This document shows, piece by piece, positions 40,107 through 64,000 of a stretch of DNA of 64,000 nt. Position numbers and translations under genes: made by a program. Below the pieces are notes generated by a model, which saw only the letters and a list, made by a program, of their open reading frames with translations, ran no database searches and was not told the DNA's origin. The number at the start of each line of letters is the position of its first letter. Positions within the stretch are counted from its first letter, which is position 1. Source of the DNA: Sporopachydermia quercuum (lineage: Eukaryota); contig BCGN01000002.1 of the NCBI GenBank assembly GCA_001599295.1, positions 1,240,001-1,304,000 on the forward strand. Direction: 5' to 3'.

Positions 40107-40597
40107 GGAAGTTAGCCATGGCATGGGAATTTGGGAGGATGAGGCATTATAACAATGGGCTTTTAAGAAGTATATGATAAACTGTATTGATTCGATTGTT
40201 TGTTAGAATGCATTTAATCTGCATGTTAGCTGCATAAAGCAACGAATTGCCTGATCTCTTGAAGTCTAAGATATTCGATAGCATAAACAATAACAGTAAA
40301 TTGTTTGAATCCGAGGTAATTGGCCATCAACAATGTAAATCCTTAGTTTCCACTTCTATCATCCCCTCATTATGAAAACGGCTTAAGCCTCTTTAAACTG
40401 TGTACATTATGATACTATTTCTAACAGCAACTACAAAATACAATGAAAGTGAATTCCTATAACATTATCTTAGTCATTATTCATCTATTTGCCATTCTCT
40501 CAATTAGCTATGTCCCTCTTCACTATTTCGAGACCATAATTAATCATTATCAGCTATAAATCCATCGAATTTCGTAGTTCTCCAGCCACTATTCATC

Positions 40598-47538: not shown

Positions 47539-48232
47539 GGGTAATGTTAGGTTTGGTATGAAATTAATTATATTATGATAAATCAAGTGATTGTAAGAAT
47601 TGCTATGTTAGACTGTAGATAATGTAGTAATTGGCATTCAGGTATTGTAAAAAGTAAACAGGGGGAATGTTATACAGTATAGAAGGCGATTATATACATT
47701 ATCATCGCACACATATTCATTCAATGCCGATAAGGCTCATTCTCATCTCTAATGACGCGAACTAGAAATAAATATAGTTTTTTCTTGGGTTGTGTATAAA
47801 CTGATATCGATTTCTTCCATGTAGAATTGGAATACCATAGGGCACATGTATTTATAGGGAGTTGCATTCTACATTTCCTTTATTTTATGTTAAATGCGAA
47901 CAAGTGCTGATTAAGTGGGGAAATTTTTCTTTATCTGCTATCACCTTACTAACAACAATATTTAATCAATTCAATTCTTACACGAACCAACTCAATAATG
48001 AGTTACTCCATGTAAGCGTACCATCGACCACGTTCTTTGCCGATCTATTATCAGCACTTAGAACTGCCTGTTGTCCTCTTTAGCTGATTCCCTGTGATCT
48101 TTCGGCAAAAATAGGAGTCATTAAACCGTTTTTCGCACTAATTTCTCTATCTTCAGACGCTTTTATAATTTTGCTCTTTAATGCCTCTTGTTTCTCGCTG
48201 TAATCATTATTTTCCGTAAGGCTTGATTCAAC

Positions 48233-49720
48233 ACTTACAAACCGATATTAACAAACTGGTAAAAGTTTTTCCTGGGTGTTTCCCAATTAAGGGTTTAGTT
48301 TGCATTTAAGTTAAGGTGTTGATGGGCTAGAGCCTCTAGTGAAACTCAAAAGTATTCTCAAGCCCCTCGTGATGATTCATTGCGAGGAAAAATATTTACG
48401 AGCGAAACGTCATTTGAATAGAATATGATATGAGAGAAGAGCTAATAGATTTATTATTGCCTTTACAAATTTTTGGCAGAAAAGGATAGAGATAATTCAC
48501 TTGTGAGGAGAGTTCGATCTTAAGTTTGTTAGTTTGTTTGAAAGTGTGTTGAGATGATTGCCCTAAATGATTTCACTGACAGCTAAGGAGTGTTCCCCTA
48601 TTTCTCTGGTTATAACAAGCCGATTTCGAGCAATCAAAAAGTAGTATTATAATGGTTCGTGCTTGTAGTGAGATACTAGCTGATGGTATTCACAATGATC
48701 TCATTGATAACAATATATATCTATCGGATCAAATGGTTAGTGAGATTGTCCACGGAATTCTACCAAGAATTCTTGAAACTAAATAGTTCAACATTGGGTA
48801 GATTGGATAACATAGATTTTTTAGGTTGATGATGCATAGCCAAGATATGGTAAGGATTGTTTTTCATTGACTCATACAGCTTTCTATGTAGTACTACTTA
48901 TTGTTGTAAAATATTATACCTAGTTATTTAGGTTAAATGTCAATTTATTGCGATTATACCTTCTGTTGCAAAGCTATTGCATGCTGGTTACTCGAAGAAA
49001 ATTACCTGTATGATATAAAATTGATACAAATCAAAGATTTATTTATCCTATTTTACCTCATTAGTAGCTGATTGACTCATTTTGAAGGTTACTTACTGTC
49101 TCTGCTCTTTAACCGAGTTTTCTGAAAATAGTTAGACCTGGTTAGATATAGCGTATGAATCAAACATTAAATATTTTAATTACTACCGGATGATTAAGAA
49201 AGTGTTAGAATAGAAAGCTAGAGCGAGATCCTGTTAGCTTAAATTGCATTACTATCAAAACAACAATCTCGAAAAGTATTCTATATCCAAAATCTCACAA
49301 TGCAACCACATGGATGTTCTACTAATTGAACTCAAATGTCCATATATTTATCTCAATGAAATATAAAAATAGTTCTCCTTTAATAGTTCTCCTTATATTA
49401 CGTACGTGTTGTTGTCAATAACTCCTAACAAATTCATTCATTGCCTTTTTTGCTTTCATTACTATTTATTCTCTTCACTTTTACTCCTCCTTAGTAGTGG
49501 AGATTTATTCATCCATACTGCGCCAAAGGGTCTGAGGGGATTTTAACCTTTTGCAAAACCATCCCAACCCGCTCTTAGATGTTCAAACCCTAAAGTTTGT
49601 TCAAGTTTAGCTTATAACTTTAAATAAAATTCGCATCAAGTACCAAAACTTAGCTGGCAATGCAACAGCAAAAGGTTATTCCCCTCCATCGTTCTCATAT
49701 AAAACTGTTCCATTGCCGCT
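48233..49720 (-). ncRNA. Candidate long structured non-coding RNA (telomerase-RNA-like); boundaries and strand uncertain
   Basis: No credible ORF. 18-bp interrupted stem at 49534-49686, template-like CCCUCAGACCCU (49538-49527), nested long-range complementarity with 48250-48368, and an upstream TATAAA at 49813-49808. Confidence 0.3.
49368..49394 (+). repeat. Direct 13-bp duplication, AATAGTTCTCCTT x2
   Basis: aatagttctcctt t aatagttctcctt. Confidence 0.75.
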
Positions 49721-49963
49721 ACTTCAAACTAAAAATTGCTGAAACGCAAGGAAGAAAGGAAAGTTTTTCATCCTGTTGGATCACGTGTATTGGTATTGAA
49801 ATTATGGTTTATAAGAAAAGCATTCAACTATGAAGAAATAATCATTCATTTCTCTTACTCTTCGTTCGTTTCTATCATTGTATTATTGCGCGTAGAGTCA
49901 TAAAGAATTCGCATTTTTAGATTTGTTGGAAAAATAGCATCGAAGATTGGATTGTTGATCGTA

Positions 49964-51280
49964 ATGTTATCAAGAATGATAGGGAGATCAAGTGGGAAAC
50001 ACCTACGGAGTATATTGTATTTGCATCAACAACATCAATGCTATTCAACAGCTAATATTTATGCATTATTTTCATCTCAACTTCCGCAGGTGTTTAATTT
50101 TCGATCTTCAAGTGTTCAACGTGAACAAGAAAAGTTAGCTAAGAAGAAAGAGGCGAATGAACTTCGTAAAGCTGAACGAGCATCAGCAATAGCAACTGCT
50201 GCTGCTTCAAATCTACCATTTCCTTATCCTGATTCCAATATCTGGAAATGGATTCCTAATAAGGGCAAGCATGAATCATTGAAATCTGTAGATAGTAGAG
50301 CGGAACTTCATTTCACTTGTGCTACTGCTGTGCATTGTTATCATTATAACAAGAAGCAACAAGGAGAGCTTGATTTAGAGGAGTCAGGTGTAGTCCCTAC
50401 TTCGGGATCGAATTCTTGTTCTTTGATATCAAATGGCGATGATGCCATCTATACATCAAGTAATCTAATAGGAATTGCTGATGGAGTTACTGCTTGGATT
50501 AATAAAAAAAATGGTAATGCTGCTCATTGGGCGAGACTGTTCCTGAGTAGAGCTGCTGCATATATCAATAACGATCGCGATGTGCATCCAATGAATGCTT
50601 CAAGCGATTTACAAGGACTCATGCTGTCCTTCGACCTTGCATCTAAAGATTCAATCACTGAAATGGAGAAGAAACAATTGCAAGGATCTTCCACTGCCGT
50701 TTTCGCTAATTTGGTGAAGAATAATTATCTCCAAATCGGAAGTATAGGCGATTCTAGGTTATTTATATTCAGGAAGAAAAAGGAAATAGAGTTTCCATAT
50801 GATTTGGGTGAAACGGAAGAGAGAATTGATTTGCATGATAGCTCCGAGATTGCGGATGCGCTCTCAACATCTTCTGGTAGTGCGTCGTATGAGCTGATTT
50901 ACCATAATATCGAGCAATACTCCGATGCTAATCAAACATGTCCTGTACAAATTGGCACCAACTTGACTGATTCTCCTTCGAACATTGGTAATTTCTCGCT
51001 ATTCAAAGTTGAGAAGAATGATGTTTTGTTGTTGTGTTCCGATGGATTATCGGACAATTTATGGCCTGTTGAAATCACAGAGATCATAAATTCGTACATT
51101 GAAAAAGGTGTCCAAGCTGTAGCAAAGAAGCTTTTGTATGAGACAGAACAAGTAATATATGATGAGTTTGCTTATACCCCCTATTATTATAAGATGGATA
51201 ATCTTGAGAAGCAGAAAGGCCGTATGATGACAGGTGGAAAGGTTGATGATGTTAGTATATGTGTTGCTCAGTTGGTGTGA
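49964..51280 (+). CDS. PP2C phosphatase of the Ptc7/Azr1 family (possibly the Ptc8-like paralog), mitochondrial presequence
   Basis: GDDA, GIADGV..W, GSSTA, IGDS, DGLSDNL, GGKVDD, with an Arg/Ser-rich N-terminus. Confidence 0.85.
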   Translation: MLSRMIGRSSGKHLRSILYLHQQHQCYSTANIYALFSSQLPQVFNFRSSSVQREQEKLAKKKEANELRKAERASAIATAAASNLPFPYPDSNIWKWIPNKGKHESLKSVDSRAELHFTCATAVHCYHYNKKQQGELDLEESGVVPTSGSNSCSLISNGDDAIYTSSNLIGIADGVTAWINKKNGNAAHWARLFLSRAAAYINNDRDVHPMNASSDLQGLMLSFDLASKDSITEMEKKQLQGSSTAVFANLVKNNYLQIGSIGDSRLFIFRKKKEIEFPYDLGETEERIDLHDSSEIADALSTSSGSASYELIYHNIEQYSDANQTCPVQIGTNLTDSPSNIGNFSLFKVEKNDVLLLCSDGLSDNLWPVEITEIINSYIEKGVQAVAKKLLYETEQVIYDEFAYTPYYYKMDNLEKQKGRMMTGGKVDDVSICVAQLV

Positions 51281-52945
51281 TGGAGCGGGACAAGATGCAT
51301 TAATAAACATTGGGAAAAATCGGAGAGCATTGGTGTGTTTGAGTATATTCTGCTTGAGATAAGATAAGAAAGTTGTTTCAGCGGGGAATTTGATAGTGGA
51401 TATCGTGAAGAATGTGACATGTTTAAATTGCTCCATGAATAACCAGTTAATGACAAGTTGATAGATTGTACTATCGGCAAATGAACAGGTGGTACACATC
51501 GTTTTGTCTATATATGTACTGATCGTCCTCAGTTGACATGTTAACTCAGCAATAACATTTCCTCGTCGCGTTTCTACTTTTATAGAAAAACAATATTTGC
51601 AATGGATGCTGGCTGGTGGATCTTGGTTCGGAGTAAACTATTTGGCGAAGGTAGGTTTAATATAGATAATAAAGGTTTAATATGGTAAGGAGTATGCAAT
51701 GTAGTAGTGTAAAGCAATATGCCCCGCAACCGACTTAGACTTCAAGGTTATCCCAAGACTGCTTGAAACATTCCAGAATGATGTTAGGATTTCATCTTGT
51801 GCTTGCTTCTCTCTAACTGGTTCCTTTTACATAATTGACTGAAGTATTAAGTTGATTTAAATACTATTTCCATCGTTCTTTGAGGCTGTTAGTGCCATGA
51901 TGATTCTTCTCAAATTAGCACAACTCTATCCTATTGTACATAGACTGATATCTTTCGCGAGTGAATTTCTCGTGGATCACTAACTCCCGTGCGCTATATA
52001 TCTGTCACTTGAGCCAATATATTATAAGAATTTACAGATGAACCATCAATAATAGAGGTTTGGTGAGTAACCAATACTACTATAGTGTTTACTTCCAGTT
52101 GAAACATAAAGGATCTCTGTGTACATAGTAGATATGTTGTACAATTACATTAGAATCACAGTTGCAATAAGAGTAGTTGCTTAAAATTGCCCGAACTCAA
52201 TACAATCAATCAAATTTTTACAATTAAATTTATAACTGTCCAGAACTAGTTGCCATTTTTTTTTTCGACATAGAAAACTACGCAAATCAATATATTCAAG
52301 TGTAACTACTAGTTATTTGACATTAGTACTTCCTACTATTAGTACCATTTGTATAATCAAATGATTAAAGTACTAGATATTTTCCAATGTTTCTTTGAAA
52401 GCCAAAATACTTAAAAATCTGTGCAAGTCTTTTTATCTTGTCTGTCTATCTATCCCTGAAATGGCTTACTTTTCCTAGCCTATTTGATCGCTCGTTGATT
52501 ATATGTTTGAAGAGTAGTAATTGTTGTATTATTATCATAACACAACTTATGCAGGCAAAGGATTTTGGATTCAATAAGCATTGCTGAACTTTCATAGTAC
52601 TTTCTTTTCTCTTGTTTGCTTCATTCCTTCATTCAGTCTTTCTTTCTTTCTTTCTTTCTTTCTTTTTAAGATTCATTTTATCATAAAGCTTCTTATGTCA
52701 GGCTCAGTGATTAAACATCCTACAACAAACCGTGTAAACTCTAATATAAACAATTCATCATTATATACATTAGAGAAGTACGAAAAATTACCAATAATAT
52801 ATGCAAGGTATAAAAGAAAATATGCAAAGTATGCAAAGTATGCAAATGCTTAACTAAAACAAAAACAACATCAAAGCATCGGAAACAGAATATTCGCAGA
52901 TAAACGCAATAATGTATTCGGATACTTTCTTACCACTCACTAGCC

Positions 52946-55900
52946 TTAAACAGCAGCAGTCTCTGTAAAAAACTGTCGTAAGACCAATGATAAAACGTTA
53001 GGCAATTCACCAACATCCTTAACGATAACATAGAAATCAAAGGGAAAGGTATCCAAATACTTATCAATCTTTAGGGCTTGACTACCGTCGTCTCTAGTCA
53101 AATAGCGAACTTGTGACATTTCGGTGATTGATTCTCTAGATCCAATTCCGTCAATGATTATAAATATCACCATTATCTTCTCCTCTCTTGCTTTTCTCAC
53201 TAACCGCAAAAGCTGTTCGTGGTCTTCACAAAAGCCGTCGGAAAGAATTATTTGCAATTGCCACAATTCAGTACCCGAGGAAGACATATTATTCTTGGCA
53301 TCGGAAAACAAAGACACGGTTTTTTCCATGAGGTTGTTAAGATTTGTTTCCGGTTGAGTGAATGTCAGATTTCGAAGGATATTAGCTCCGTTTTCGGCAT
53401 TAACTGCTTCGGAGAACGGAATGAGTTGGTTTACATCTTTTCCAAACTTCACCACACTAATCAAACCTGCTTCTAATTGTTTCAAAGCATTAGCCACTAG
53501 CGCAACACTATCATAGGTCAAAGCCACATTTCTGGCCTCAGCCATGGATTTCGAATCGTCAATAGCAAGCATAATTTGATACTCTCGCTTACTAGGTCTA
53601 GTTCGGCGAAGCCAAATCTTATCCTTTCTATATTGAGAAGCAATATAAGGGATAATTCGCTTGAGATTGAGACGTTTACCTGTTTTATAATCACCCCTGA
53701 GTTTATTAGTTAAGGTTGGTTCTAAGATGAGACGCAGTTGCTCACAAAGTTGAGTGGAGAGTTCATTCGTTCGCCAGGAGCATTTTTGCCATAATTGATG
53801 GCTTTTCTCTACTGATTCAATTTGCATTTTGAGCTTCAAAGCTGCGTCTTCAGCACTTTCCTCACCCGAATTAGCCAGCTCAGAGTTCTCCTCTGCTTCC
53901 GAATCAGAATCAATATTAGGCTCGTCAAGTTCGACATCAGANTCCTCATTTTCAGATTTGATTTTCACTTCGACATCTGTATCAATGTCAGCATTAGGAT
54001 TTGCCGTTTCGGCTTCCTTTTCGACAGAATCGAGGTCTTTTTCATTGAGGCGAGGTCCGATTATTCCTCCTTGATCTTGTCCATCTTCGCTTACATCTTC
54101 TTCTTTGTTTTCTTTTGCTGCAGCTTCCAATTCCATTTCGGCATCTATGTCAATTTCTGTTTGTTTTAATGCTTCTAAATCGTCCATCAAACTGTCTTCT
54201 CCCGCTTCATTTTCTGTCTCGGGTTTGTCTTCCATTATTTCCTTAGACTCATCCATTTCTTGATGGAAATCTTTCTCAGCATCACCTAAAGCCTGAGTCT
54301 CTGCATCTTCTGTTCCGTCTACATGCTCAAACGCATCGGGCTTAACTCCAGCATCCTCCATTTCTTGGTCATCTTCACCATTACTTGGCTCCATAATTTC
54401 CTGTTGTCGATTGTAAAACTCTTTCAAGGCATCTCCTAACTGTCGTAACGATTTCTCTACTTCCTCTCTAGCAGGATCTTGCATAGTTTCCGGCTTCTCA
54501 GAAGCCTGTTCGGAGGCATCCGGAACGGACCCAGTNTTGGATTCATCTGATCTTTCTTCATTAGCGCTATGTTGAGTCCCGGTGCCTTCTACTCCACTTT
54601 CTTGATCTTTAGCTTTTGCTTTCGATGTCTCCTCGGAATTTTCCTCGGAATCCTCATGAGAATTCTCATCAATTCCAGTTGAAGCATCCGCTGCAGCAGG
54701 TACTGCTTCCGTTTCCTCTTCATCTTGTTCCATAGGATCCTCGTTTGTTTCTGTATCTTCTGGTACCATTTCCGTATTTTCTGCATTTTCTGGGTTTTCT
54801 TCCGGTCCATCATTTACATCTTCTTTCTCATTGCTTTCGTCATTCTCTCCAGTTTGTTCTTCTTCTTTTTCCGCTTCTGTTTTAGCATCGTCTTCTTCCT
54901 TATCTTGATCATCAACCGTTTCACCTTCTTCTTTTTCTTCCGATATATCCTCCGCTTTTCCTTCATTCTCTTCATCTTCGTCCATCATGTCCGCATCTTT
55001 CATTCCCGGTATTTCTTCCGGTTCTTCTATGTCTTCTCCTTCGTCATCTCCTTCTTTTTCTTCCGCATCACCATCTAAATTCAGATCTTCTGGTAAATCT
55101 AATTTCTCACTTTCGGGAACATTCTGTTCCATCTCCTCCTTCTCTTCATTTTGTACTTTATCTTCTTGTACACCAACATCTTCCTCTTCTTCAGCTTCCG
55201 CATCAGATATTTCTTCTTGTTTATCTTCACTCTTATCATCATCTCCGTTTTCCTTCTTTTTATCATCCTCTCCGTTTTCGCCTTCATCCTCTTCGTCTGG
55301 TCTAGCCTCTAAGTCATCTTGCATTCTATCGTTTTTCATGTCATCTCCACTTTTTTCCTTCAAATTATCTTCAGCTTCTTCGTCCCAAAGCTTCTCATCT
55401 ACTGCATTAGGATCCAAATCGTTCAAATCATCAATCTCTTCATCTAAATCTTCCGCGTCTTTCTCTTCATCTTCTCTGTCTTTATCCTCATCTTCTTTAT
55501 TTTCAGCATCTGACATGTTTTCCGTTTTACCTGCCATGTCACCTTCAATTTCAACAGCATCATCCTCCTCTTCTTCATTTTGATCTTTATCTTTCTCTTC
55601 CTTATTAGTTTCTTCCGCATATTCACTAAGATCTTCATCATCTCCGACATCTTTACTATTATTAGTTTCTCCATCTCCATCTCCGAGTCCAGTACCTTCG
55701 GTAGCATTTTCGGCTTCTTTCTCATCGGCGGGTGGTTCTGGTGAGCAGAAGCCCTTTTCAGCAAGGTTTAATAAACATCTTCCTAGTAGATATGCCGATT
55801 TACTAGTACTCTTATACTGCAAACATCTTTTGCGGAAAACAACGGAAACTAATTTCCGATATTTGGCTAAAAGCGGAGCAACAAATTTGAATAATAACGC

Positions 55901-58900
55901 CGCAGCCTGACAACTTCCTGGGTCACCTGACAACTTCTTAATAACGCCGATACTGTCTTCGATTAGCATATTGATTTGTTCATTATGCAAACATTTCTCT
56001 AATGAGAATAAGTGTTGTTCAGAAATGATGACCCAAGAATCAATTTCGGAAGAGATATCGGTTTTAATAGCATCTCGGATTTGTTGGAATACAACTAAAA
56101 TAGAGTTTGACAGCTTAGTTAAGGTTTCGTTCAATATTTCCGGTATTTCGGCTTCTCGTTCTGATCTGGATTGTTCTGAGATCAGACTAAATCCTAACCG
56201 GAGTTTTTCGGAAGCTAGAACCGGGTTTTGTTCCAATTCTGGTAACACCTTATTAATCCAAGCAATAATAGAGTTCCCAATGTATCCGGAAACCAACGCT
56301 GATCTCATTTTAGAAATAAATCCTATCACACTACGGAAATAATCAATATCTTCGTCGGTGATAATTTCAGATTGCAGTAGAATATTGGCTGATTTCAACT
56401 TAATTAAGTAGTCATTCGCCTGGTGTTTAAACTGACTGATTGACGATTTCAATTCCGAGTTTACTTTACCGAAATTACCACTTTCAGCTATTGTATCTTC
56501 CGCTAACTGTAACACATTCGGTAACCAAACAATCACATGCTTCAGTCTTGAAACTAAATCTAAATCGGGAACTCTGCCGAACCCTTGTTCGGAGTTCTCG
56601 CTTAGTTTTCCAATTTGAGCTAAATTGCTATCAAGCCGAGAAATCCCATGATAGATACCGCAAACCGAAATTCGGCTTTTAATCAACAAATGCACTAAAT
56701 GTTCGGCACTAGCCATACCTCTTTGTACATCGGTTGTAGGGACATCTTCGGAAGAGTTTATAACTGAGGAACGCAATCTCGGAATAAACTCCAATAGGCG
56801 TAAGAAGTAGCTATCAATATCCGAACTTAAATTCTGAGGGAAAGCCTTCATTATTCCGAGAATTTCCGAAACAGAGCTTTGTTCAGCCATTATTTCAGAG
56901 ACGAGTCGAGATTTCAGCCCAATTCGGTACAGTTCTTTCAAAGTTTCGCTTAAAAACAATCGTTTTTGCGTCTTCAAATTAGCTATAACTTTCTTCTCTT
57001 CCTTTTTGTACACTTTCGGAGTCTCATTCCGAAGCATTTCCATTTGTGTAATCACGTCGGAAGTTAAATCCATCAAATTCGGGAGTTCTTGGAGTTCTAG
57101 TTCACTAATAAACTTATTCATATTAATAATAATAATCTTAGGGTTCCGAAGTCTTCCTGGTTTTTCCGACCATGATTTAACACATTGAGACAAAATAGGC
57201 TCAATCTCCGAAACCTCACGAATGGTTTCCACTTCATCGGAATAATTCTCTAATGCGGAGCTAGCAATATCCCCCGAGACAGCCTCCATTATATCTCCGT
57301 CTTCTGAATTAAAAACCTTATCCAAAGTGGCTTCCGAAAGTCCTGCTTCGATAATACCTGTTACGGAAGCGGTAAGGACAGCTCGGTATTTCCGGGCAAC
57401 TTTAAATAATTTGTGATGTGATCTCCGAGCGCTTTCTTTTAAAGCTTCCATATTGACGTCTTTCCAACTTGCCAATAGCACGACTTCCCGAACATCATTT
57501 TCCAATTTCCGTTTATTCCGTAAAATCTCAGCGTCAATTTTAGGTTCAAATTGCCGGTAGAAGTGTATAACGTTATTTAAAGTTTGCGTCAATGGAAACG
57601 CCGATCCGGCTTCCTCCGCAATTAAGGCCAAATGGCGGGAAAAGGCAGATAGCAGTTGTAATCGGGGACCAAATTCTCCCACTGTGCTCTCGGAAAGAAA
57701 CACCGTTAATGCTTTGACTACCGAGGTTTTGATATCCATTCCTATATCTTCTCCGGCGTCGTTGCCACCATTATCTCCACAGTTTTCCTTATCAATTCCA
57801 TTGGCAACTAAAACTTCAAACAAATGGAAGAACCATTGTCCCGATTTCTTCCTGCACTCTTCCTCCTCGGATGAGAAAAGGTTCGGCCAAACTGACAGTT
57901 CGAGCTTCCGCCATCTGATAATCAAATCACTTAATCCGGCAAATACTCCCGCTAAGGAAACGGTTTTACTAGCGTATTTTTGCCATTCCCCAACAAAGGT
58001 ATATATCTGCTGAACCTTATGTAAAAGCCGAGCAACTGGATGTTCCGCTTGAAGGGTCAAAAACTCCCGGCAAGCTAATTCAATGTTCTGCAACGTAGCA
58101 TGTTCCGGCCATTGTTCTCGAAGAGGGATAATAGCTACTAAAGTTTGCTCTATAATTTCGATAGAGTAATTAAGTTCAGCGGGGTTAGAATCTCGGTAAA
58201 AATTAAGAGTAGGATGTTCGGAGGAAGAATTAAGTTCCGAACTATCAGCGAATATGCTAATATATTTCCCAATAGTGTTAGTAATACCAACAATGATGGA
58301 AGAGGAGACCTCTTGTAAGTAATTCTTCCCGAACAGCGATCCCGAAACCTTGTTTCTAGAATTATATTCATTCCATTCCACAGCTAAATCGGAGCCTTGT
58401 TTAACAATATCGGAAAGTTTAGGAACGGAATAAGAATCATTAAGCATTCCATAAATATATGCTTTGGCAATCTGAAAGTTGATTTCCATTTCTTCTGATT
58501 CTTTTCCTTTACCATGAGTAATTATATTTCCATTGTTCTCTCCGGTTTCTTCCTCTTCAAAGTCAGGGAACATCCTCCGTAGTTCTGCCTCTTCTTCCGA
58601 TTGCTCCGAAAACGAGAATTTGTACATTTCACCTTCAAGTCGAGCAACTTCATCCTTCCGAGCTTTTCGGATACTCCATCTTGAATATAGTAACCTTAAA
58701 CAGTGTAATAAATCATTGGAATCCGAATAACTAGGATCTTTATTCGATCTCAATAGTAGAACACTAAGGCCGAAGATTCCGAGCTTTTCCGGTAATAATG
58801 ACTCAACAGAAATTTTCCGACAGGATCGGAAGATTTCGTTGCAAAGCTCCGATGTTTCGGGATAATGAATAACTTTGTGGAAATCAGATAAATGAATTGG

Positions 58901-61900
58901 TGAGAAAGCAATAGCAGTTTCCGATAATTCTGAGTTTCGGGACCTCTCTGAAAGAAGTAATAAATCTAAACCGAATTTAACAGAAGAGATGTAAACAGTT
59001 ATCAAGTCGATAACATCCGATAGTCTCCGGAATTTGGTGTTTACCCTGTTCAAGAAACTTGAAGCATTAATCTGAATTGTTTCCGTTCTCTCGATTATGT
59101 CCGATTTGTGTGACTCTGCTAATTCTACTATCTCCGAAATGTTTGATACGGAAATCGTTGAATGAAGAACTGCCGACAACTCTCGGAACATATCGGAGTA
59201 TGAGCTATTAGCACTGCTGGTATCATTTCCGAAACTTCCTCTGAACACAGCTTCACTATTACCTAATTTCAATGATCTCCGGTCTGAAACAAAATTATTG
59301 GCTATTAATTCTTCCGCTGGAATCATTCTAGAGCCAAATTTAACTTTGCGGATCTCCCGCCATGCTCTTTCGATATCTTCCGTCAATTGCTTTTGTCCAT
59401 TATAGAAATCAATCAGCACGTGATCAAACACAGCGGGGTCGGAACATGTTTTCGGTACGAAAAGCTTTAATAAACCTAATCCGTATAACACAAACGCTTT
59501 ACCTACATTTCCTAATCTTTCCCATCTGTTTGAATCAATCCTGTCCTTCCGTTTAACTAGTAATAAAGCCGGGATTAATAGCTCTTTGCAAACATCAATG
59601 AATTCATCATCTTCTCCGTTATTGGTGATGATCTGAATTAACTCTTCCGCCTTATTTCCATCCATTGTTTCCGCTACTCTCCTCATTGTCTCCGCTAGAT
59701 CAGCATCATCTTTTCCGGTTGCTGAATTAACTACAAATATATCAATAAGCTTTTCAACAATAATATCGGAAAACTTATCAATCATATTTGCCGAGATGTT
59801 TTCTGAACTCTCGGATATACTAAAACCTAATTGCCGAATGTCTTGAACACTTTGAGCCACAAACTCTCCAGGCATTGCTGACATTGATTGCAGACTTCGG
59901 AACAAATCCATCACGGCTTTTCCTGTGAATAACTCTTCAGTATAGGAAGAATAAGATTCGTCGGATAATTTCCACATTGAGGCAAAAGTTCCAAAGTCAC
60001 CCGTGGCGAATATACCCTTTTCGGTTGCATCTTCCGCGTACAGTTTCAGTACTTCCGTATTATTGCCGATATTCCCAGTTAATTCTGACATTCTAAGCAC
60101 AAATTGAAAACTGCCTACAAATCTGTTCATTCGGGGAATGAGAAACTTGTTTGTGGCATTTTCTAATGGAATTAACGCTTCGGAAATTCCCGTGATTATC
60201 GGAACGATCTCCGAAATAGTCTTGTCATTTCCGTTTTCCTTCACAGCTAAACCACATCCAATAAGGGTTGAACGAATTGTTAGTAATGTCGGAAACGATG
60301 CCGGGAATTGCCTCCTAGATAGGTCATCTAGGCGGGCCGAAAGCGTAACTATAGTTTCTAAAGTTTCCCAACCCGATAAGGTTTTCGGATAGTTTCCTTT
60401 ATAGGCATTCCAGATTCTCATCATTGAATTAGCCGAGGTCAAACCTAGATCTTTACTGAAGGAAGAATATATAGCGGAGATATTTTGAGCGAATTGAGTA
60501 ATTTCCAATGAATTCTCGGATGTACTTCCCTTTGTAGTAAACCCTCGGCAAAATTCAGATATCAACGCATCATATACATGTAACCCAGGAACAGCCGTTC
60601 CGAGCTTTCCCTCACAATGTGATAATAAACTTTCCCATATTGATAGTAGGCTGTATAGACATCGTATGATTAGTTCATTTTGGAGAATCGAACCTTCTTT
60701 TAAGGTTGTCCGGAAAAACTCGGTTGCTGTGGTCAATAATTTGCCTAATAATTCAAACACGGGAATTCTCGGAGCATTTTTCAGTGGTCTTAGTGAATAA
60801 ACTGCGGCTGACAATTGAATTAGATTCATTGTTTCCGGTTTCAAATCCTGACATTGCGATAAAATCTCTGCTAAGTTTTCCGAACCTCGGATTAATTGAT
60901 ACACTACATGTATCAATACATGTAATACACCGGACCCAAATAACGGAAACGATGATCCATTTAATTCTGAGGATAATCCGGAAATGATGTATTCATTGAT
61001 AAGAGGGTTAATACACTCGTTATTAACATCTATTCCCGTTTTCTCGACGACTGTTCCGATATTTGAAATTAAATTTTGGCTTAATTCTACCCAAAGCGGA
61101 TTTTTGCTCAATTGGTAAATTTCTTTAACCCGAGTTGCCTCCTTTGGTAATAACGCCAAGCTTGAAATTACCCAATCCAACCGATTCATAACCTTACTTG
61201 GTAGATTCTCTAATAACACATGTCCTCCAACTTCCGATAGTTCCCGTAAATCCGCATCGGAAATAACGGAGCCAGCACTTGCCTCCGATTCCGAAACATC
61301 GATAAAACTTGCCGAACATCGGTTATTCAATACTATTGAGTCAAACTCGGAAACCCTTCCGGGTAGCTCCGAAATGAATATTTCCACTCCTCTGTTTCTC
61401 ATTGCGCGGGATAATTCGCCGTATTTGGCATCGACGGTTAAGAACAACCTAAAATCCGGATGAGGAATCACCTCCCGAGGAGATCCGTCTGAGTTACTGC
61501 ATTCGTTCACCATTAAGGTTCCGTTTGGTTCTAAAAGGGAATTTAGCCGATCTAATACGGAAGCACTGCATAGATTAGCGTTTTCCAACACAAGCCAGTT
61601 CCCGGTTTCTACAGCTTTCAGCAAGATTCCATCAAACCATTCGAACTTAATTTCTGGTTTAGTGGATCTCGGCTCAGTGAAATTTCCTAGTTCGGTTAGA
61701 AGATCTCCTAAATGAGGAAACTTGTCGCTTAAACTAGCATATTTAGTAATAAACTCGGCAACTTGAACTCTATCCACACTAGCCACCGAGCGCACAAACT
61801 TAATCGCCCGGAGTAAATCCAAATTAGACTCAATCAGTCCCATTTTTGTGTAATTCTCAGTAAATGTTTCCCGTAGTTTCTCCCATAATTCATGCATTAA

Positions 61901-64000
61901 TTCCGACATTTTCCGGACCTCATCCACTTGTTCAAATCCACCGAGCATATCCATAGAATCGACTTCGGAATTCATAGGAAACTCTATTAATTCTTTTCCA
62001 ACAACGGAAGCTAAATACCGGACGATTCCGGTTTTGCCCGAATTGCTCGGTCCGACTAAAATCACGGGCCAATTAGCATTTATGCATGTGATTGTAGTTT
62101 CTAGCACGTGATTATTACACTGAAGATACCGAAACTTTCCAGAAAACCAGCTATCAGAAAATCTACTAGATCGGGTGATTATTTCTCTCCCTATTTGCAC
62201 TTGGGTTTGGGTAATTGAATAATAATAACTATCGGCTGGAATTTCCACATTAGGTATCACTTCCTGGAAGATCCGCTTAGCGTAAAGTCTATCCTGGTTA
62301 CTTCGGAACCTTAATTTGATAACCAGGCCGAAAAATTCCCCTAATAATCCTGATCTATTTCGACTGCGCCTCAAAGTGGCTCCGCTATATAGCTTCAGCC
62401 ATCTTAAAATATCTCTTAAATTAACTTCCCAGGGTCCACCTAACGATCCGAATTTACCCTTACCGAGTTCTTCGGATATTTTGGACACAAACCTAATCAA
62501 TCCCGAAATTTCCTCTTCGGGTATTTCTGGGAACACATATTTCCCAATTAGGTCCAAATCTTCCTGTTTAAGTGTCTCTACAAACACAACACTGAACCGA
62601 TTAACAAACGATTTTGGTAACCCTTTCCGACTTCCTCCTTGAGCTTGAGGATTCTGGGCGGCAAACACTCGGAACTTCGGATCACATCGGAATGTTCGAT
62701 CAAGTTCGGGTATATAAGCTTCCGCTCGATGATCCAAACACGCATTTAAACCTTCCAAAACCGGTTGAGACGCTAAATTCATCTCATCTAGTAAAACCCA
62801 TTGCCCAGATTGCATAGCTCGAAGAAACGGAGCGTCTTTCCAGACAAATTCTCCGGCAGATCCGTTTGGAGCGGGAGAGTCGGAACCAAAAAGGTCAATT
62901 AGATCGGTTTGTTCCGAAAGGTTAATTCGAATAAGGTTTTGGCCGGCCGCAGACGCTAAAGCCGAGATCAACGTTGTTTTACCCACTCCCGGGCTTCCTT
63001 CTAATAAGATCGGTTTCCGGGATTGCATGGCTCGGATGACTCGGAAGGCGTTCTGGGCAGTTGTCGGGGCATTAAGGTTGAAGTTTTGTTCTAGAGAACC
63101 ATCCGAAGTCAAGCGGGGAATACAGAAATAGCCGGTCCGGACATATTCAGAGGTTATTTCTACAGGGAAAACCTTCTGAATCTCCGATCGGAAATCAGTG
63201 ACGGCTAATTCTCCGAGTTTTCCAACACAAATTCTTTTTTCGGACATCAACCGAGGAGAATTCTCGGCTAAATAACCCGTTTGGTTCGTCCCTAAAGCGT
63301 CAATGAAAACCATAAGTGCTCCATGTAATAAAGATACTTTGGGCTCAATCGTTTCCGTTTCAGCTTCCGTTTCTTCTTCCGACACGGAGTTAATAAAATT
63401 CACCCAAGCTAAAATATCTCGCAACGAAACTACCCCGCTTCCTAAATTACCCCCGCCGTACCGGAAACCAAACCATTCGGAAAATTTAACTATGGGATCT
63501 GTCAAACAAATCACAGGCGGTTTCAACCGAGCGGACACAATCTCTGCAACATCCGAGCTATCCTCCATGCTCGGAACCCAAATCTCGGTAAATCTGTTCC
63601 GTAATGCTGGAGATAGTTCCTTTTTACCGTAATCTCCTCCGGGATTCATAGTAGCTAAGAACTGGAATTTAGGTTCCGAGGTTACAAATGCATCGACCGA
63701 TCCTTTTTCGGCTAATAATAAAGTTCGCTCTGGTTCCAGTACCGAATTCAACCTTTCAAGCACGGAATCCTCGGCTAAGGAGATCTCATCAAATAGGAAA
63801 TAGTCCCCGCTTTTCATGGCTTGTACTAATGGTCCGTCCGTCCATTGGAATAATTGGGTCAACTTCTTTCTGTTTTGGGAAATTCTTTCCGCTATGGGAA
63901 TAATTTCGGGATTAGTAAATAAGTTTCCATGGTCAGCCCGGAGTTGATCGTATTGGGCATTAAGGTTCTCCTGTGTATTATCAATCAGAAACTCTAATTC
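52946..64000 (-). CDS. MDN1: Midasin/Rea1 AAA ATPase, 5'-truncated by the window
   Basis: Frame is open to base 64000. AAA modules (LEGSPGVGKT, LLDEMNLA, GPSNSGKT), long linker, D/E-rich tail, and a MIDAS domain (DDSKSM, SDG, YLDTFPF). Confidence 0.97.
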   Translation of the reverse strand, partial: ELEFLIDNTQENLNAQYDQLRADHGNLFTNPEIIPIAERISQNRKKLTQLFQWTDGPLVQAMKSGDYFLFDEISLAEDSVLERLNSVLEPERTLLLAEKGSVDAFVTSEPKFQFLATMNPGGDYGKKELSPALRNRFTEIWVPSMEDSSDVAEIVSARLKPPVICLTDPIVKFSEWFGFRYGGGNLGSGVVSLRDILAWVNFINSVSEEETEAETETIEPKVSLLHGALMVFIDALGTNQTGYLAENSPRLMSEKRICVGKLGELAVTDFRSEIQKVFPVEITSEYVRTGYFCIPRLTSDGSLEQNFNLNAPTTAQNAFRVIRAMQSRKPILLEGSPGVGKTTLISALASAAGQNLIRINLSEQTDLIDLFGSDSPAPNGSAGEFVWKDAPFLRAMQSGQWVLLDEMNLASQPVLEGLNACLDHRAEAYIPELDRTFRCDPKFRVFAAQNPQAQGGSRKGLPKSFVNRFSVVFVETLKQEDLDLIGKYVFPEIPEEEISGLIRFVSKISEELGKGKFGSLGGPWEVNLRDILRWLKLYSGATLRRSRNRSGLLGEFFGLVIKLRFRSNQDRLYAKRIFQEVIPNVEIPADSYYYSITQTQVQIGREIITRSSRFSDSWFSGKFRYLQCNNHVLETTITCINANWPVILVGPSNSGKTGIVRYLASVVGKELIEFPMNSEVDSMDMLGGFEQVDEVRKMSELMHELWEKLRETFTENYTKMGLIESNLDLLRAIKFVRSVASVDRVQVAEFITKYASLSDKFPHLGDLLTELGNFTEPRSTKPEIKFEWFDGILLKAVETGNWLVLENANLCSASVLDRLNSLLEPNGTLMVNECSNSDGSPREVIPHPDFRLFLTVDAKYGELSRAMRNRGVEIFISELPGRVSEFDSIVLNNRCSASFIDVSESEASAGSVISDADLRELSEVGGHVLLENLPSKVMNRLDWVISSLALLPKEATRVKEIYQLSKNPLWVELSQNLISNIGTVVEKTGIDVNNECINPLINEYIISGLSSELNGSSFPLFGSGVLHVLIHVVYQLIRGSENLAEILSQCQDLKPETMNLIQLSAAVYSLRPLKNAPRIPVFELLGKLLTTATEFFRTTLKEGSILQNELIIRCLYSLLSIWESLLSHCEGKLGTAVPGLHVYDALISEFCRGFTTKGSTSENSLEITQFAQNISAIYSSFSKDLGLTSANSMMRIWNAYKGNYPKTLSGWETLETIVTLSARLDDLSRRQFPASFPTLLTIRSTLIGCGLAVKENGNDKTISEIVPIITGISEALIPLENATNKFLIPRMNRFVGSFQFVLRMSELTGNIGNNTEVLKLYAEDATEKGIFATGDFGTFASMWKLSDESYSSYTEELFTGKAVMDLFRSLQSMSAMPGEFVAQSVQDIRQLGFSISESSENISANMIDKFSDIIVEKLIDIFVVNSATGKDDADLAETMRRVAETMDGNKAEELIQIITNNGEDDEFIDVCKELLIPALLLVKRKDRIDSNRWERLGNVGKAFVLYGLGLLKLFVPKTCSDPAVFDHVLIDFYNGQKQLTEDIERAWREIRKVKFGSRMIPAEELIANNFVSDRRSLKLGNSEAVFRGSFGNDTSSANSSYSDMFRELSAVLHSTISVSNISEIVELAESHKSDIIERTETIQINASSFLNRVNTKFRRLSDVIDLITVYISSVKFGLDLLLLSERSRNSELSETAIAFSPIHLSDFHKVIHYPETSELCNEIFRSCRKISVESLLPEKLGIFGLSVLLLRSNKDPSYSDSNDLLHCLRLLYSRWSIRKARKDEVARLEGEMYKFSFSEQSEEEAELRRMFPDFEEEETGENNGNIITHGKGKESEEMEINFQIAKAYIYGMLNDSYSVPKLSDIVKQGSDLAVEWNEYNSRNKVSGSLFGKNYLQEVSSSIIVGITNTIGKYISIFADSSELNSSSEHPTLNFYRDSNPAELNYSIEIIEQTLVAIIPLREQWPEHATLQNIELACREFLTLQAEHPVARLLHKVQQIYTFVGEWQKYASKTVSLAGVFAGLSDLIIRWRKLELSVWPNLFSSEEEECRKKSGQWFFHLFEVLVANGIDKENCGDNGGNDAGEDIGMDIKTSVVKALTVFLSESTVGEFGPRLQLLSAFSRHLALIAEEAGSAFPLTQTLNNVIHFYRQFEPKIDAEILRNKRKLENDVREVVLLASWKDVNMEALKESARRSHHKLFKVARKYRAVLTASVTGIIEAGLSEATLDKVFNSEDGDIMEAVSGDIASSALENYSDEVETIREVSEIEPILSQCVKSWSEKPGRLRNPKIIIINMNKFISELELQELPNLMDLTSDVITQMEMLRNETPKVYKKEEKKVIANLKTQKRLFLSETLKELYRIGLKSRLVSEIMAEQSSVSEILGIMKAFPQNLSSDIDSYFLRLLEFIPRLRSSVINSSEDVPTTDVQRGMASAEHLVHLLIKSRISVCGIYHGISRLDSNLAQIGKLSENSEQGFGRVPDLDLVSRLKHVIVWLPNVLQLAEDTIAESGNFGKVNSELKSSISQFKHQANDYLIKLKSANILLQSEIITDEDIDYFRSVIGFISKMRSALVSGYIGNSIIAWINKVLPELEQNPVLASEKLRLGFSLISEQSRSEREAEIPEILNETLTKLSNSILVVFQQIRDAIKTDISSEIDSWVIISEQHLFSLEKCLHNEQINMLIEDSIGVIKKLSGDPGSCQAAALLFKFVAPLLAKYRKLVSVVFRKRCLQYKSTSKSAYLLGRCLLNLAEKGFCSPEPPADEKEAENATEGTGLGDGDGETNNSKDVGDDEDLSEYAEETNKEEKDKDQNEEEEDDAVEIEGDMAGKTENMSDAENKEDEDKDREDEEKDAEDLDEEIDDLNDLDPNAVDEKLWDEEAEDNLKEKSGDDMKNDRMQDDLEARPDEEDEGENGEDDKKKENGDDDKSEDKQEEISDAEAEEEEDVGVQEDKVQNEEKEEMEQNVPESEKLDLPEDLNLDGDAEEKEGDDEGEDIEEPEEIPGMKDADMMDEDEENEGKAEDISEEKEEGETVDDQDKEEDDAKTEAEKEEEQTGENDESNEKEDVNDGPEENPENAENTEMVPEDTETNEDPMEQDEEETEAVPAAADASTGIDENSHEDSEENSEETSKAKAKDQESGVEGTGTQHSANEERSDESXTGSVPDASEQASEKPETMQDPAREEVEKSLRQLGDALKEFYNRQQEIMEPSNGEDDQEMEDAGVKPDAFEHVDGTEDAETQALGDAEKDFHQEMDESKEIMEDKPETENEAGEDSLMDDLEALKQTEIDIDAEMELEAAAKENKEEDVSEDGQDQGGIIGPRLNEKDLDSVEKEAETANPNADIDTDVEVKIKSENEXSDVELDEPNIDSDSEAEENSELANSGEESAEDAALKLKMQIESVEKSHQLWQKCSWRTNELSTQLCEQLRLILEPTLTNKLRGDYKTGKRLNLKRIIPYIASQYRKDKIWLRRTRPSKREYQIMLAIDDSKSMAEARNVALTYDSVALVANALKQLEAGLISVVKFGKDVNQLIPFSEAVNAENGANILRNLTFTQPETNLNNLMEKTVSLFSDAKNNMSSSGTELWQLQIILSDGFCEDHEQLLRLVRKAREEKIMVIFIIIDGIGSRESITEMSQVRYLTRDDGSQALKIDKYLDTFPFDFYVIVKDVGELPNVLSLVLRQFFTETAAV

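What the first reader, a model, noticed from the sequence alone, without database searches (positions are those of the whole stretch)
52946..64000. Strong CpG enrichment, mostly CCG/CGG, throughout MDN1
Seen, from hand counts of CG per 600 nt: about 36 at 62401-63000 (about 25 in CCG/CGG context) and about 23 at 52981-53580. Comparison values are about 7 in HSP78 (21301-21900), about 8 in EMC1 (14401-15000) and about 5 in MOB1 (46921-47520). TCCG, CGGA, TCGG and CCGA recur on both strands and across codon boundaries. Arg is often CGG/CGA here but mostly AGA elsewhere, and SE/PE dipeptides look frequent. MDN1 is an essential, normally vertically inherited gene, so horizontal transfer is unlikely. 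Inference: a DNA-level signal or local mutational regime overlaid on coding sequence. Options include chromatin or nucleosome cues in a very long gene, dense CGG protein-binding sites, a modification-linked pattern, or GC-biased gene conversion.
Basis: partly seen in the sequence, partly recalled or inferred. Interest (0 to 1): 0.7.

Follow-up and report, generated by a model that had tools for sequence, protein, structure and literature searches.

The report
CCG/CGG triplet overlay on yeast MDN1
At least 11 kb of the giant essential gene MDN1 in an early-branching budding yeast is packed about four times too densely with the DNA triplets CCG and CGG, in every reading frame and on both strands, while its neighbours are normal. 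No known process explains this.

Summary

**What is enriched**
- Across the MDN1 ORF (52946-64000, minus strand) CCG+CGG reach 35.9 per kb. The 17 other ORFs have 1.8-12.3 per kb.
- Given the MDN1 protein and the neighbours' codon usage, CCG is 3.7x and CGG 3.4x expectation. CpGs in any other context are 0.93x.
- The excess is in all three frames, equal on both strands, and appears only where a synonymous choice can create CCG/CGG. Codon choice in neutral contexts is unchanged: C fraction 0.31 vs 0.31.
- It is uniform at 3.9x over 8 kb, falls to 2.4x in the last 2.7 kb, and is absent from the downstream intergenic.

**What is excluded**
- Higher GC3, amino-acid composition, generic GC-biased conversion, rare-codon use, RNA folding, helical or nucleosome periodicity, and misassembly.
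- A general MDN1 property: 0 of 895 2-kb windows around 80 other eukaryotic MDN1 genes resemble it.

**Cause: open**
- In-situ fixation bias toward CCG/CGG (motif-directed repair or conversion): 0.3.
- Introgressed foreign signature: 0.25.
- Selected CGG-site array: 0.2.

The whole genome and sister species are needed to decide.

The parts
52946..64000 (-). MDN1 (midasin/Rea1) ORF, 3,684 codons plus stop. It is open at the window end; about 1,200 N-terminal codons lie beyond the window. This is the carrier of the CCG/CGG overlay: 495 CpG, 186 CCG and 211 CGG on the sense strand.
   Evidence: ORF. Translation P0001. Pfam AAA_5, MDN1_4th and AAA_lid_7. All named hits among the best 120 are budding-yeast midasins at 40-56% identity. 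Counts.
55900..64000 (.). Plateau of the overlay. CCG+CGG are 3.86x the protein-constrained native expectation, homogeneous over 27 bins of 300 bp.
   Evidence: chi-square 13.9 on 26 df. In one search the 2-kb bins over 56001-64000 give CCG/CGG o/e 2.35-2.52, other CpG o/e 0.36-0.55 and CpA+TpG o/e 0.74-0.89.
52949..55899 (.). 3' part of the ORF (acidic D/E-rich linker and MIDAS domain) with a weaker overlay, about 2.45x.
   Evidence: block ratios 2.77, 2.17, 2.34.
51281..52945 (.). Intergenic spacer downstream of MDN1 without the overlay. It holds a (CTTT)n microsatellite at about 52630-52670.
   Evidence: 12 CCG+CGG against 15.3 expected from base composition. Sequence. One assembly's contigs break at 52611-52672.
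1..51280 (.). Background: 17 ORFs of at least 250 aa and their spacers. They show CpG deficiency, TpG/CpA excess and no CCG/CGG preference.
   Evidence: CG o/e 0.53, CA 1.18, TG 1.23; 1.8-12.3 CCG+CGG per kb per ORF. CCG/CGG o/e 0.26-0.98; ratio to expectation 0.31-1.28.

Best explanation
The MDN1 DNA carries its own duplex-DNA signature, produced in place by a fixation bias defined by its product.

Wherever a synonymous change can turn a site into CCG or its complement CGG, that state has been fixed far more often than elsewhere in the genome. The main routes are CWG to CSG (W = A or T, S = C or G), WGG to CGG, CCW to CCG, and AGA to CGA/CGG next to C or T. The odds shift is about 4-10 fold. 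That is a population-scaled coefficient of roughly 1.4-2.3 per site, which is my inference.

I take the most likely agent to be non-adaptive: mismatch repair or gene conversion that resolves heteroduplexes toward CCG/CGG. This would act in a chromosomal domain that begins at the MDN1 3' end and runs past the window end.

**Shown:** the pattern is DNA-level, product-defined, symmetric, uniform along the gene, and sits on an otherwise host-like background.

**Inferred:** that it arose in situ, that it is non-adaptive, and the repair or conversion agent itself.
For: **Product-defined, not one mutation type.**
- Both transitions and transversions end in CCG/CGG.
- NCN codons before G end in C 0.29 or G 0.30, against 0.07 and 0.05 in other genes.
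- Non-NCN Y-ending codons are C-ending 0.48 vs 0.18 before GG and 0.59 vs 0.33 before CG.
- Arg is CGA 0.39 after C and CGG 0.37 after T, against AGA of about 0.6 in every context elsewhere (all).
- CAG and CTG are depleted equally, 0.65 and 0.62. CCG and CGG rise equally, 3.69x and 3.43x.

**Duplex-level.**
- All three frames are enriched, 3.0-8.2x.

**Overlay on a native background.**
- Neutral-context C-ending fraction is 0.31 vs 0.31.
- Two-fold codon usage is nearly the same.
- TA o/e is 0.70 vs 0.72.
- CpGs in other contexts are 0.93x expectation.

**Independent of protein constraint.**
- Density is alike in invariant, variable and lineage-specific columns: 31, 33 and 26 per kb.
- CGA, CGG and CCG sit at invariant Arg and Pro columns.

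**Spatial pattern.**
- A stationary plateau with a graded 3' decline. The plateau bins are homogeneous, so there is no mosaic of patches there.

**Physical and phylogenetic context.**
- Same copy number and physical continuity with the neighbours.
- The protein branches beside the one early-diverging yeast in the tree, outside the crown clades. HSP78 likewise has its best named matches in early-diverging yeasts.

**Precedent.**
- Intragenomic variation of non-adaptive nucleotide bias, physically clustered, is documented in budding yeasts (PMC9246145, abstract and section 8 read).
Against: - I know of no eukaryotic repair or conversion system with trinucleotide-product specificity. My four literature searches found none.
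- Generic W-to-S conversion bias, the known form, is absent here.
- Why such a bias should act over this stretch and not on 17 neighbouring genes is unexplained.
- Only one boundary is visible, and the genome is not held. I cannot say whether the domain is one gene or larger, or whether other such domains exist.
- No sister-species or population data exist here to polarise changes.
- CCGG is rarer than independent flanks predict (ratio 0.58, against 0.82±0.08 in shuffles). This fits a three-base unit but does not separate repair from selection.
- The same facts fit an imported signature or a selected motif array nearly as well.
Confidence: 0.3

Rival explanations
1. Introgressed or xenologous segment. 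MDN1, perhaps with DNA beyond the window, was replaced by homologous recombination with the allele of a related AT-rich yeast lineage. That lineage's whole genome would carry a CCG/CGG-rich signature, so the overlay is the donor's genomic signature.
For: - A strand-symmetric, frame-independent shift in di- and trinucleotide use confined to one segment is the classical mark of foreign DNA.
- The plateau is uniform, as a genome signature would be.
- A genome-wide bias in a donor is easier to imagine than a bias confined to one locus.
- The segment lies about 6.7 kb from a point where the contigs of all three runs end. That could be a repeat or a chromosome end, and from recall introgressed blocks in yeasts often lie near chromosome ends.
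- Lineages do differ in this respect. One AT-rich yeast-like metagenome locus (L002) keeps CCG/CGG CpGs at o/e 0.87 in its flanks against 0.31 for other CpGs.
- Precedent from recall: the GC-rich left arm of Lachancea kluyveri chromosome C.
Against: - No sampled lineage has the signature. The maximum CCG/CGG o/e is 1.47 in 895 windows of 80 loci, against 1.78-2.52 here.
- Everything except CCG/CGG is host-like, so the donor would have to match the host in all else.
- Read depth equals that of the flanks.
- At coarse level the protein sits where the host should, with a long branch.
- All named hits among the best 120 are budding yeasts, so there is no cross-class transfer.
- The enrichment fades gradually over the last 2.7 kb rather than stepping down.
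- The hypothesis only moves the question of what makes CCG/CGG to another genome.
Confidence: 0.25
2. Selected array of CGG half-sites. The gene body of the longest essential gene has been selected to hold a CGG triplet about every 31 bp on either strand. The reader would be a CGG-recognising protein (fungal Zn2Cys6 zinc-cluster type, from recall) or another duplex-level cue that helps a 15-kb transcription unit.
For: - Product-defined enrichment reached by several mutational routes is what selection on a motif gives.
- Three-base specificity with weak flank effects suits a single recognition module. After normalising for the protein, CGGA is 4.4x, CCGG 4.5x, CCCG 4.8x and ACCG 2.1x.
- One flank per CpG suffices: CCGG is under-represented (ratio 0.58, against 0.82±0.08 in shuffles).
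- The overlay ends near the stop codon, and the downstream spacer is at background.
- 33% of the attainable gain is realised (397 observed, about 112 native, 981 maximum).
- There are other signs of nucleotide-level tuning on the sense strand. TCTTG is 3 vs 9-12 expected, T5 is 9 vs 18-22 and A5 is 23 vs 40.
Against: - I know of no precedent for hundreds of selected half-sites inside an ORF.
- Per-site selection in a gene not known to be highly expressed (recalled from S. cerevisiae MDN1, not tested here) would be minute.
- No preferred spacing or orientation typical of zinc-cluster dimers was found. Only a lag-10 excess appears (23 pairs against a mean of 11.6 and sd 3.8, the best of 117 lags), with no periodicity.
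- MDN1 of 52 other eukaryotes shows nothing of the kind (inside/outside ratio median 0.87, maximum 1.17).
Confidence: 0.2
3. Translation-level or mRNA-level selection: rare CGN/CCG/NCG codons for slow translation, or extra mRNA structure from pairing of CCG with CGG.
For: - The codons involved are rare elsewhere in the window.
- CCG and CGG are complementary, so equal enrichment on one strand could serve RNA pairing.
- The pattern is seen only in the ORF.
Against: - All three frames are enriched 3.0-8.2x.
- The cross-boundary excess is 9 sd above the codon shuffle.
- Folding z-scores do not differ from those of other ORFs (-0.55 vs -0.27, p 0.11).
- The real sequence folds no better than generic GC-matched recodings (-29.27 vs -28.95±0.52 kcal/mol per 150 nt).
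Confidence: 0.05
4. Artefact: a chimeric or contaminant contig, or an assembly or polishing error.
For: An abrupt compositional change near a gene end; 16 single N in the window.
Against: - Contigs rebuilt from the reads of three runs (two studies) match the 20 kb with no differences. Two span 44001-64000 in one piece.
- The third breaks only at a (CTTT)n tract, with depth 34 vs 31 on the two sides. Caveat: these runs may include the source of the window.
- The ORF is intact over 3,684 codons.
Confidence: 0.02

Closest known systems
Mutational clusters of genes with different non-adaptive nucleotide bias in Saccharomycotina (Cope and Shah 2022, PMC9246145; abstract and section 8 read)
   Same: [quoted passage not shown] Biased gene conversion is a proposed cause.
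   Different: Those clusters are GC3-rich or GC3-poor regions that can span hundreds of genes. Here general GC3 in neutral contexts is unchanged, only the CCG/CGG product is favoured, and the visible domain is a single gene of at least 11 kb.
GC-rich left arm of Lachancea kluyveri chromosome C (recalled; a related paper, PMC10962940, was seen only in a search listing)
   Same: A sharply bounded chromosomal segment whose composition differs from the rest of a yeast genome. It has been discussed as an introgression.
   Different: That segment is about 1 Mb with a global GC rise in all codon families. Here the segment is at least 11 kb, GC rises only from 0.36 to 0.41, and the change is trinucleotide-specific.
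Very-short-patch repair and the over-representation of CCWGG-type words in E. coli (recalled, not tested)
   Same: Works like it in principle: a motif-directed mismatch repair drives the sequence toward its own recognition word, whatever the reading frame.
   Different: That system is bacterial, genome-wide, tied to a Dcm methylase and corrects T:G only. Here the host is a eukaryote, the effect is local, it has no known enzyme, and it includes transversion routes.
Vertebrate CpG islands
   Same: A local domain where CpG is not depleted against a CpG-poor, TpG/CpA-rich background.
   Different: Islands retain CpG in all contexts, are GC-rich and sit at promoters. Here only CCG/CGG CpGs are in excess, at 2.4x base-composition expectation. 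Other CpGs stay depleted, GC is 0.41, the domain is a gene body, and the subphylum is reported to lack 5mC (PMC13297926, passages).
CGG half-sites of fungal Zn2Cys6 (Gal4-type) transcription factors (recalled)
   Same: The enriched word is exactly the half-site these fungal-specific proteins read, on either strand.
   Different: Known sites are pairs with fixed spacing in promoters. Here about 350 dispersed single triplets lie inside an ORF without preferred spacing.

Membership tests
Midasin / MDN1 / Rea1 gene | Dynein-type AAA_5 modules, midasin lid domains, a D/E-rich linker, a C-terminal MIDAS domain, and full-length similarity to yeast midasins. | tested here: met
   Pfam AAA_5 (2.3e-48), MDN1_4th and AAA_lid_7. 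37-40% identity to 12 budding-yeast midasin homologues (11 named, one unnamed), with invariant blocks through the AAA and MIDAS parts. Hits named midasin.
GC-biased gene conversion tract / GC3-rich domain | W-to-S enrichment at synonymous sites of all codon families, whatever the neighbouring bases. | tested here: not met
   C-ending fraction of non-NCN codons in neutral context is 0.31 vs 0.31. Two-fold codon usage is nearly equal.
CpG island / CpG-retaining domain | CpG at or near expectation in all flanking contexts. | tested here: not met
   CpGs outside CCG/CGG have o/e 0.36-0.55 inside and 0.30-0.83 outside, and are 0.93x the protein-constrained expectation. ACGT is 0.5x the rest of the window.
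Horizontally transferred or introgressed segment | Atypical composition relative to the host. | tested here: met
   CG o/e 1.11 vs 0.53, CA 0.77 vs 1.18, CC 1.30 vs 0.99. The difference is restricted to CCG/CGG-linked words.
Horizontally transferred or introgressed segment | Gene tree incongruent with the species tree or with flanking genes. | tested here: inconclusive
   - In a 13-taxon tree MDN1 falls beside Geotrichum, outside the crown clades, on a long branch (2.16 vs median 0.57).
- HSP78 also matches early-diverging yeasts best.
- No close relative is available: the best EMC1 hits are 25-28% identical.
Zn2Cys6 binding-site cluster | CGG triplets in pairs of fixed orientation and spacing. 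| tested here: not met
   A scatter of gaps exceeds the shuffles at z of 3.1-5.3; the strongest ones give a CpG-to-CpG distance of 10 bp. Lag 10 holds 23 pairs against a mean of 11.6 and sd 3.8, the best of 117 lags. No periodicity appears. Protein binding itself is not testable here.
Rare-codon (translation pausing) cluster | Enrichment confined to the reading frame. | tested here: not met
   CCG is 3.3x, 5.8x and 6.8x, and CGG 6.8x, 8.2x and 3.0x, in frames 0, 1 and 2.
Trinucleotide (CGG)n repeat | Head-to-tail tandem copies. | tested here: not met
   351 dispersed sites with a mean gap of 31 bp and CV 0.91. Only 3 pairs lie at lag 3. Tandem Repeats Finder was not run.
RIP-like or deaminase hypermutation | C-to-T changes with a TpA gain. 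| tested here: not met
   TA o/e is 0.70 vs 0.72. The change runs W to S, not S to W.

The most novel reading that the evidence does not exclude
A budding yeast has a mechanism that writes or maintains one three-base word, CCG/CGG, across a defined chromosomal unit. One reading is a motif-directed repair or conversion drive, a eukaryotic analogue of bacterial very-short-patch repair. The other is a selected array of about one CGG half-site per 31 bp through the body of its longest essential gene, read by a zinc-cluster-type or other CGG-binding protein as a gene-body signal.
Probability: 0.3. Interest if true: 0.85.

Novelty: new variant of a known kind. Interest (0 to 1): 0.62.

Why it matters
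Compositional domains in yeast genomes are known as broad GC3 shifts. A sharply bounded, single-word overlay that leaves every other feature of codon usage untouched is not something I could find described.

- If it is a repair or conversion drive, it would show that sequence-specific biased fixation can reshape eukaryotic coding DNA.
- If it is an import, it points to an unsampled yeast lineage with a very odd genome signature and to replacement of an essential 15-kb gene.
- If it is selected, it would be a new kind of gene-body signal.

In practice, such a gene would mislead codon-bias, HGT-detection and dN/dS analyses.

Tried and rejected
**Whole-genome test.**
- The comparison with other long genes and chromosome position could not be run. 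No genome is held for this window.

**Earlier notes of this scan.**
- Five look-ups brought nothing relevant.

**Sequencing runs.**
- No RNA holder is listed.
- Two further runs held next to none of the words.

**Spacing and periodicity.**
- CGG/CCG pairs: only a lag-10 excess, the best of 117 lags. I treat it as marginal.
- Periodogram: nothing beyond 3 bp. The best other power is 3.8, against a null median of 6.2.

**RNA structure.**
- Rejected.

**Close relatives for polarising substitutions.**
- None found. Best identities are 40-56% for MDN1 (the higher values cover only 61-63% of the query), 25-28% for EMC1 and 65-80% for HSP78.
- The metagenome scan gave 80 MDN1 loci, none close.
- L002, the highest by best segment, is 53% identical only in the MIDAS domain.

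**Hypotheses considered and set aside.**
- Altered genetic code: CGA, CGG and CCG sit at invariant Arg and Pro columns.
- Methylation-linked explanations are disfavoured by the reported loss of 5mC enzymes in the subphylum (passages only). They were not tested on this genome.
- Avoidance of a CWG transposon target site and neighbour-templated (dislocation) mutagenesis were considered from recall. AA/TT are below expectation rather than above it, and per-site selection would be negligible.

**Literature.**
- Searches found no description of a CCG/CGG-specific gene-level enrichment in yeast.
- Supplements were not consulted.
Full report
**What is there**

The window (GC about 0.35) holds a run of ordinary yeast genes. 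From 52946 to the window end, on the minus strand, lie 3,684 codons of an ORF that stays open at the window end.
- The ORF is midasin/MDN1. It has AAA_5, MDN1_4th and AAA_lid_7 domains.
- It is 37-40% identical to 12 budding-yeast midasin homologues (11 named, one unnamed), with invariant AAA and MIDAS blocks.
- Every named protein among the best 120 hits is a budding-yeast midasin.
- About 1,200 N-terminal codons lie beyond the window.
- The neighbours include EMC1, HSP78, DcpS, a 6-phosphofructo-2-kinase, a mitochondrial carrier, MOB1 and a PP2C-like gene.

The organism has no close relative in the protein collection. The best EMC1 hits are 25-28% identical (3 hits at E<=1e-30). HSP78 matches early-diverging yeasts best: Nadsonia 76%, Trichomonascus 77%, Lipomyces 70-77%.

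**Checking the observation**

| Measure (per kb) | 1-53000 | 53001-64000 |
|---|---|---|
| CpG o/e | 0.28-0.95 | 0.91-1.27 |
| CCG+CGG | 1-13 | 18-53 |

- Per gene, the 17 other ORFs of at least 250 aa have 1.8-12.3 CCG+CGG per kb, and MDN1 has 35.9. I left out the two overlapping 5'-open ORFs at 1-1242 and all shorter ORFs.
- The excess is not a general CpG excess. In 2-kb bins, CCG/CGG o/e is 0.26-0.98 outside and 1.78-2.52 over 54-64 kb. CpGs in any other context are 0.30-0.83 outside and 0.36-0.55 inside.
- CpA+TpG falls from 1.03-1.30 to 0.74-0.89 over 56-64 kb.

**Controls**

| Word (sense strand) | Observed | Expected (300 recodings) | Ratio |
|---|---|---|---|
| CCG | 186 | 50.5±6.7 | 3.69 |
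| CGG | 211 | 61.4±6.6 | 3.43 |
| Other CpG | 144 | 154.9±11.9 | 0.93 |
| CAG | 126 | 194.8±11.0 | 0.65 |
| CTG | 110 | 176.8±10.7 | 0.62 |

The expectation keeps the MDN1 protein and draws codons from the neighbours' usage.
- Shuffling synonymous codons within MDN1 leaves CpG at 495 but gives 304±10 CCG/CGG against 397 observed. The motif therefore depends on neighbours across codon boundaries.
- NCN codons end in C (0.29) or G (0.30) when the next base is G, against 0.07 and 0.05 in other genes. When the next base is A they are nearly unchanged: 0.16 and 0.14, against 0.13 and 0.08.
- Other C/T-ending codons are C-ending 0.31 vs 0.31 in neutral context, but 0.48 vs 0.18 before GG and 0.59 vs 0.33 before CG.
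- Arg is CGA 0.39 after C and CGG 0.37 after T, while other genes use AGA at about 0.6 in every context.
- All three frames are enriched, 3.0-8.2x.
- Two-fold codon usage is nearly the same, and TA o/e is the same, 0.70 vs 0.72.

**Misassembly or contamination**

- Contigs rebuilt from three runs of one organism (two studies) match window 44001-64000 with no differences.
- Two of them span the whole 20 kb in one piece.
- The third breaks only at 52611-52672, a (CTTT)n tract, with depth 34 and 31 on the two sides.
- Caveat: these runs may include the source of the window.
- All three contigs end about 6.74 kb past the window end. Some repeat or a chromosome end therefore lies roughly 3 kb upstream of MDN1.

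**Anatomy of the overlay**

- There are 351 CpGs in CCG/CGG context, with a mean gap of 31 bp and CV 0.91.
- Normalised for the protein, the enrichment is 3.86x and homogeneous over 64000-55900 (27 bins; chi-square 13.9 on 26 df). It is 2.45x over the last 2.7 kb of the ORF.
- The downstream spacer 51281-52945 is at background, 12 against 15.3 from base composition. The next genes give ratios of 1.09, 1.10 and 0.87, within the range of the others, 0.31-1.28.
- 397 of a possible 981 CCG/CGG are realised. That is a third of the attainable gain over the native expectation of about 112.
- Flanks matter little once the protein is accounted for: CGGA 4.4x, CCGA 3.8x, CCGG 4.5x, CCCG 4.8x, ACGG 2.6x, ACCG 2.1x.
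- CCGG is rarer than independent flanks predict (ratio 0.58, against 0.82±0.08 in shuffles and 0.90 in the rest of the window). The unit is therefore the three-base word.
- Density is alike in invariant, variable and lineage-specific protein columns: 31, 33 and 26 per kb.
- CGA, CGG and CCG occupy invariant Arg and Pro columns, so decoding is standard.
- Amino-acid use leans slightly the same way relative to orthologues: G 5.6 vs 4.5%, R 4.8 vs 4.0%, P 3.3 vs 2.9%, Q 3.3 vs 4.3%. I have no proteome-wide control for this.

**Is it a property of MDN1 in general? No.**

- The metagenome scan returned 80 eukaryotic MDN1 loci.
- In the 52 with at least 4 kb of flank (28 dropped for short flanks), the inside/outside ratio of CCG/CGG o/e has a median of 0.87 and a maximum of 1.17. 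Here it is about 4.
- None of 895 2-kb windows in those loci reaches o/e 1.75 (maximum 1.47). Five consecutive windows here have 1.78-2.52.

**What it is not**

- *Generic GC-biased conversion:* neutral contexts are unchanged.
- *Rare-codon pausing:* the enrichment is frame-independent.
- *RNA structure:* 150-nt folding z-scores are -0.55 (71 windows) against -0.27 (160 windows of other ORFs), p 0.11. The real sequence folds no better than GC-matched generic recodings, -29.27 vs -28.95±0.52 kcal/mol; native recodings give -27.02.
- *Helical or nucleosomal phasing:* the only period is 3 bp. The best other power is 3.8, below the null median of 6.2. The excess of pairs at lag 10 (23 against a mean of 11.6, the best of 117 lags) is marginal.
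- *Tandem repeat, RIP-like decay, CpG island:* defining features are not met (see the membership rows).
- *Cytosine methylation:* disfavoured, because a review states that Saccharomycotina have lost all 5mC methyltransferases (PMC13297926, passages). This genome was not tested. Its background does show a classical CpG-deficit with TpG/CpA-excess pattern.

**How it most likely works**

The facts point to a bias defined by its product. Transitions and transversions from several starting words all end in CCG/CGG, symmetrically on both strands, on a background that is otherwise the host's own. That is either selection for the word or a fixation bias toward it, not one mutational signature. The odds shift at usable sites is about 4-10 fold. 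By my inference that corresponds to a scaled coefficient near 1.4-2.3.

| Explanation | Confidence | Main point for | Main point against |
|---|---|---|---|
| In-situ, non-adaptive fixation bias (motif-directed mismatch repair or conversion) in a domain starting at the MDN1 3' end | 0.3 | Host-like background and the graded 3' decline | No known eukaryotic mechanism; unexplained locality |
| Introgressed allele carrying a donor genome's signature | 0.25 | The usual reading of a single compositional outlier, and it explains locality | An unsampled donor identical to the host in all else |
| Selected gene-body array of CGG half-sites | 0.2 | Explains the word, the one-flank rule and the ORF-end boundary | No precedent and no preferred spacing |
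| RNA or translation-level selection | 0.05 | See rival explanations | See rival explanations |
| Artefact | 0.02 | See rival explanations | See rival explanations |

A coarse tree places the protein beside Geotrichum, outside the crown clades. That fits the host's apparent position, but the branch is very long (2.16 vs a median of 0.57). Vertical descent is therefore compatible but not proven.

**Comparison with what is known**

[quoted passage not shown] Those are GC3 domains that can span hundreds of genes, not a single-word overlay.
- Very-short-patch repair in E. coli (recalled) is the closest working analogue of a motif-directed drive.
- The CGG half-site of fungal zinc-cluster factors (recalled) is the closest reader of the word.
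- Searches found no report of such a pattern.

**Verdict**

This is a real, strong and very specific anomaly whose cause cannot be settled from one window. The whole assembly, sister species and polymorphism data would settle it.

Noticed in passing
window 52949-64000 (sense = minus strand): Sense-strand depletion of TCTTG (3 vs 9-12 expected) and CTTG (18 vs 32-36). Their complements are much less so (CAAGA 18 vs 19.5-24.7; CAAG 41 vs 43-51). T5 (9 vs 18-22) and A5 (23 vs 40) runs are also scarce. From recall, UCUUG is the Nab3 termination motif of S. cerevisiae, so this may be avoidance of premature termination in a very long gene.
   Followed up: partly
beyond window end (about 64001-70740, not visible): Contigs rebuilt from all three runs end about 6.74 kb past the window end (records of 18,102, 130,129 and 91,149 letters). 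A repeat or a chromosome end therefore lies roughly 3 kb upstream of the MDN1 start.
   Followed up: no
window 1-52000: The background shows a classical CpG deficit with TpG/CpA excess (CG 0.53, CA 1.18, TG 1.23 in ORFs). CpG is also avoided at codon boundaries (218 vs 324 in shuffles). Yet the subphylum is reported to lack cytosine methylation.
   Followed up: no
L002 (metagenome locus, GC 0.32), whole locus: In this AT-rich yeast-like genome, CCG/CGG CpGs are much less depleted than other CpGs (flanks 0.87 vs 0.31; 2-kb windows with ratios up to 5.8). This is a weak, genome-wide form of the same skew in another lineage.
   Followed up: partly
window 52630-52670: A (CTTT)n microsatellite in the spacer downstream of MDN1. 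One run's contigs break here.
   Followed up: yes
window, 15 places (e.g. 130, 3385, 7808-7809, 53942, 54536): Sixteen N, all single except one pair, scattered through the window. Two fall in the acidic linker of MDN1. Their origin (ambiguity codes or masking) is not known.
   Followed up: no
P0001 (window 52949-64000): The MDN1 protein sits on a very long branch (2.16 changes per column against a median of 0.57; Geotrichum 1.42) in a 13-taxon tree. Whether this is a lineage effect or specific to this gene was not tested.
   Followed up: no
window 52949-64000: CpG-to-CpG distance of exactly 10 bp among CCG/CGG sites occurs 23 times, against a mean of 11.6 (sd 3.8) for lags 4-120. There is no 20 or 30 bp harmonic and no periodogram peak.
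   Followed up: yes
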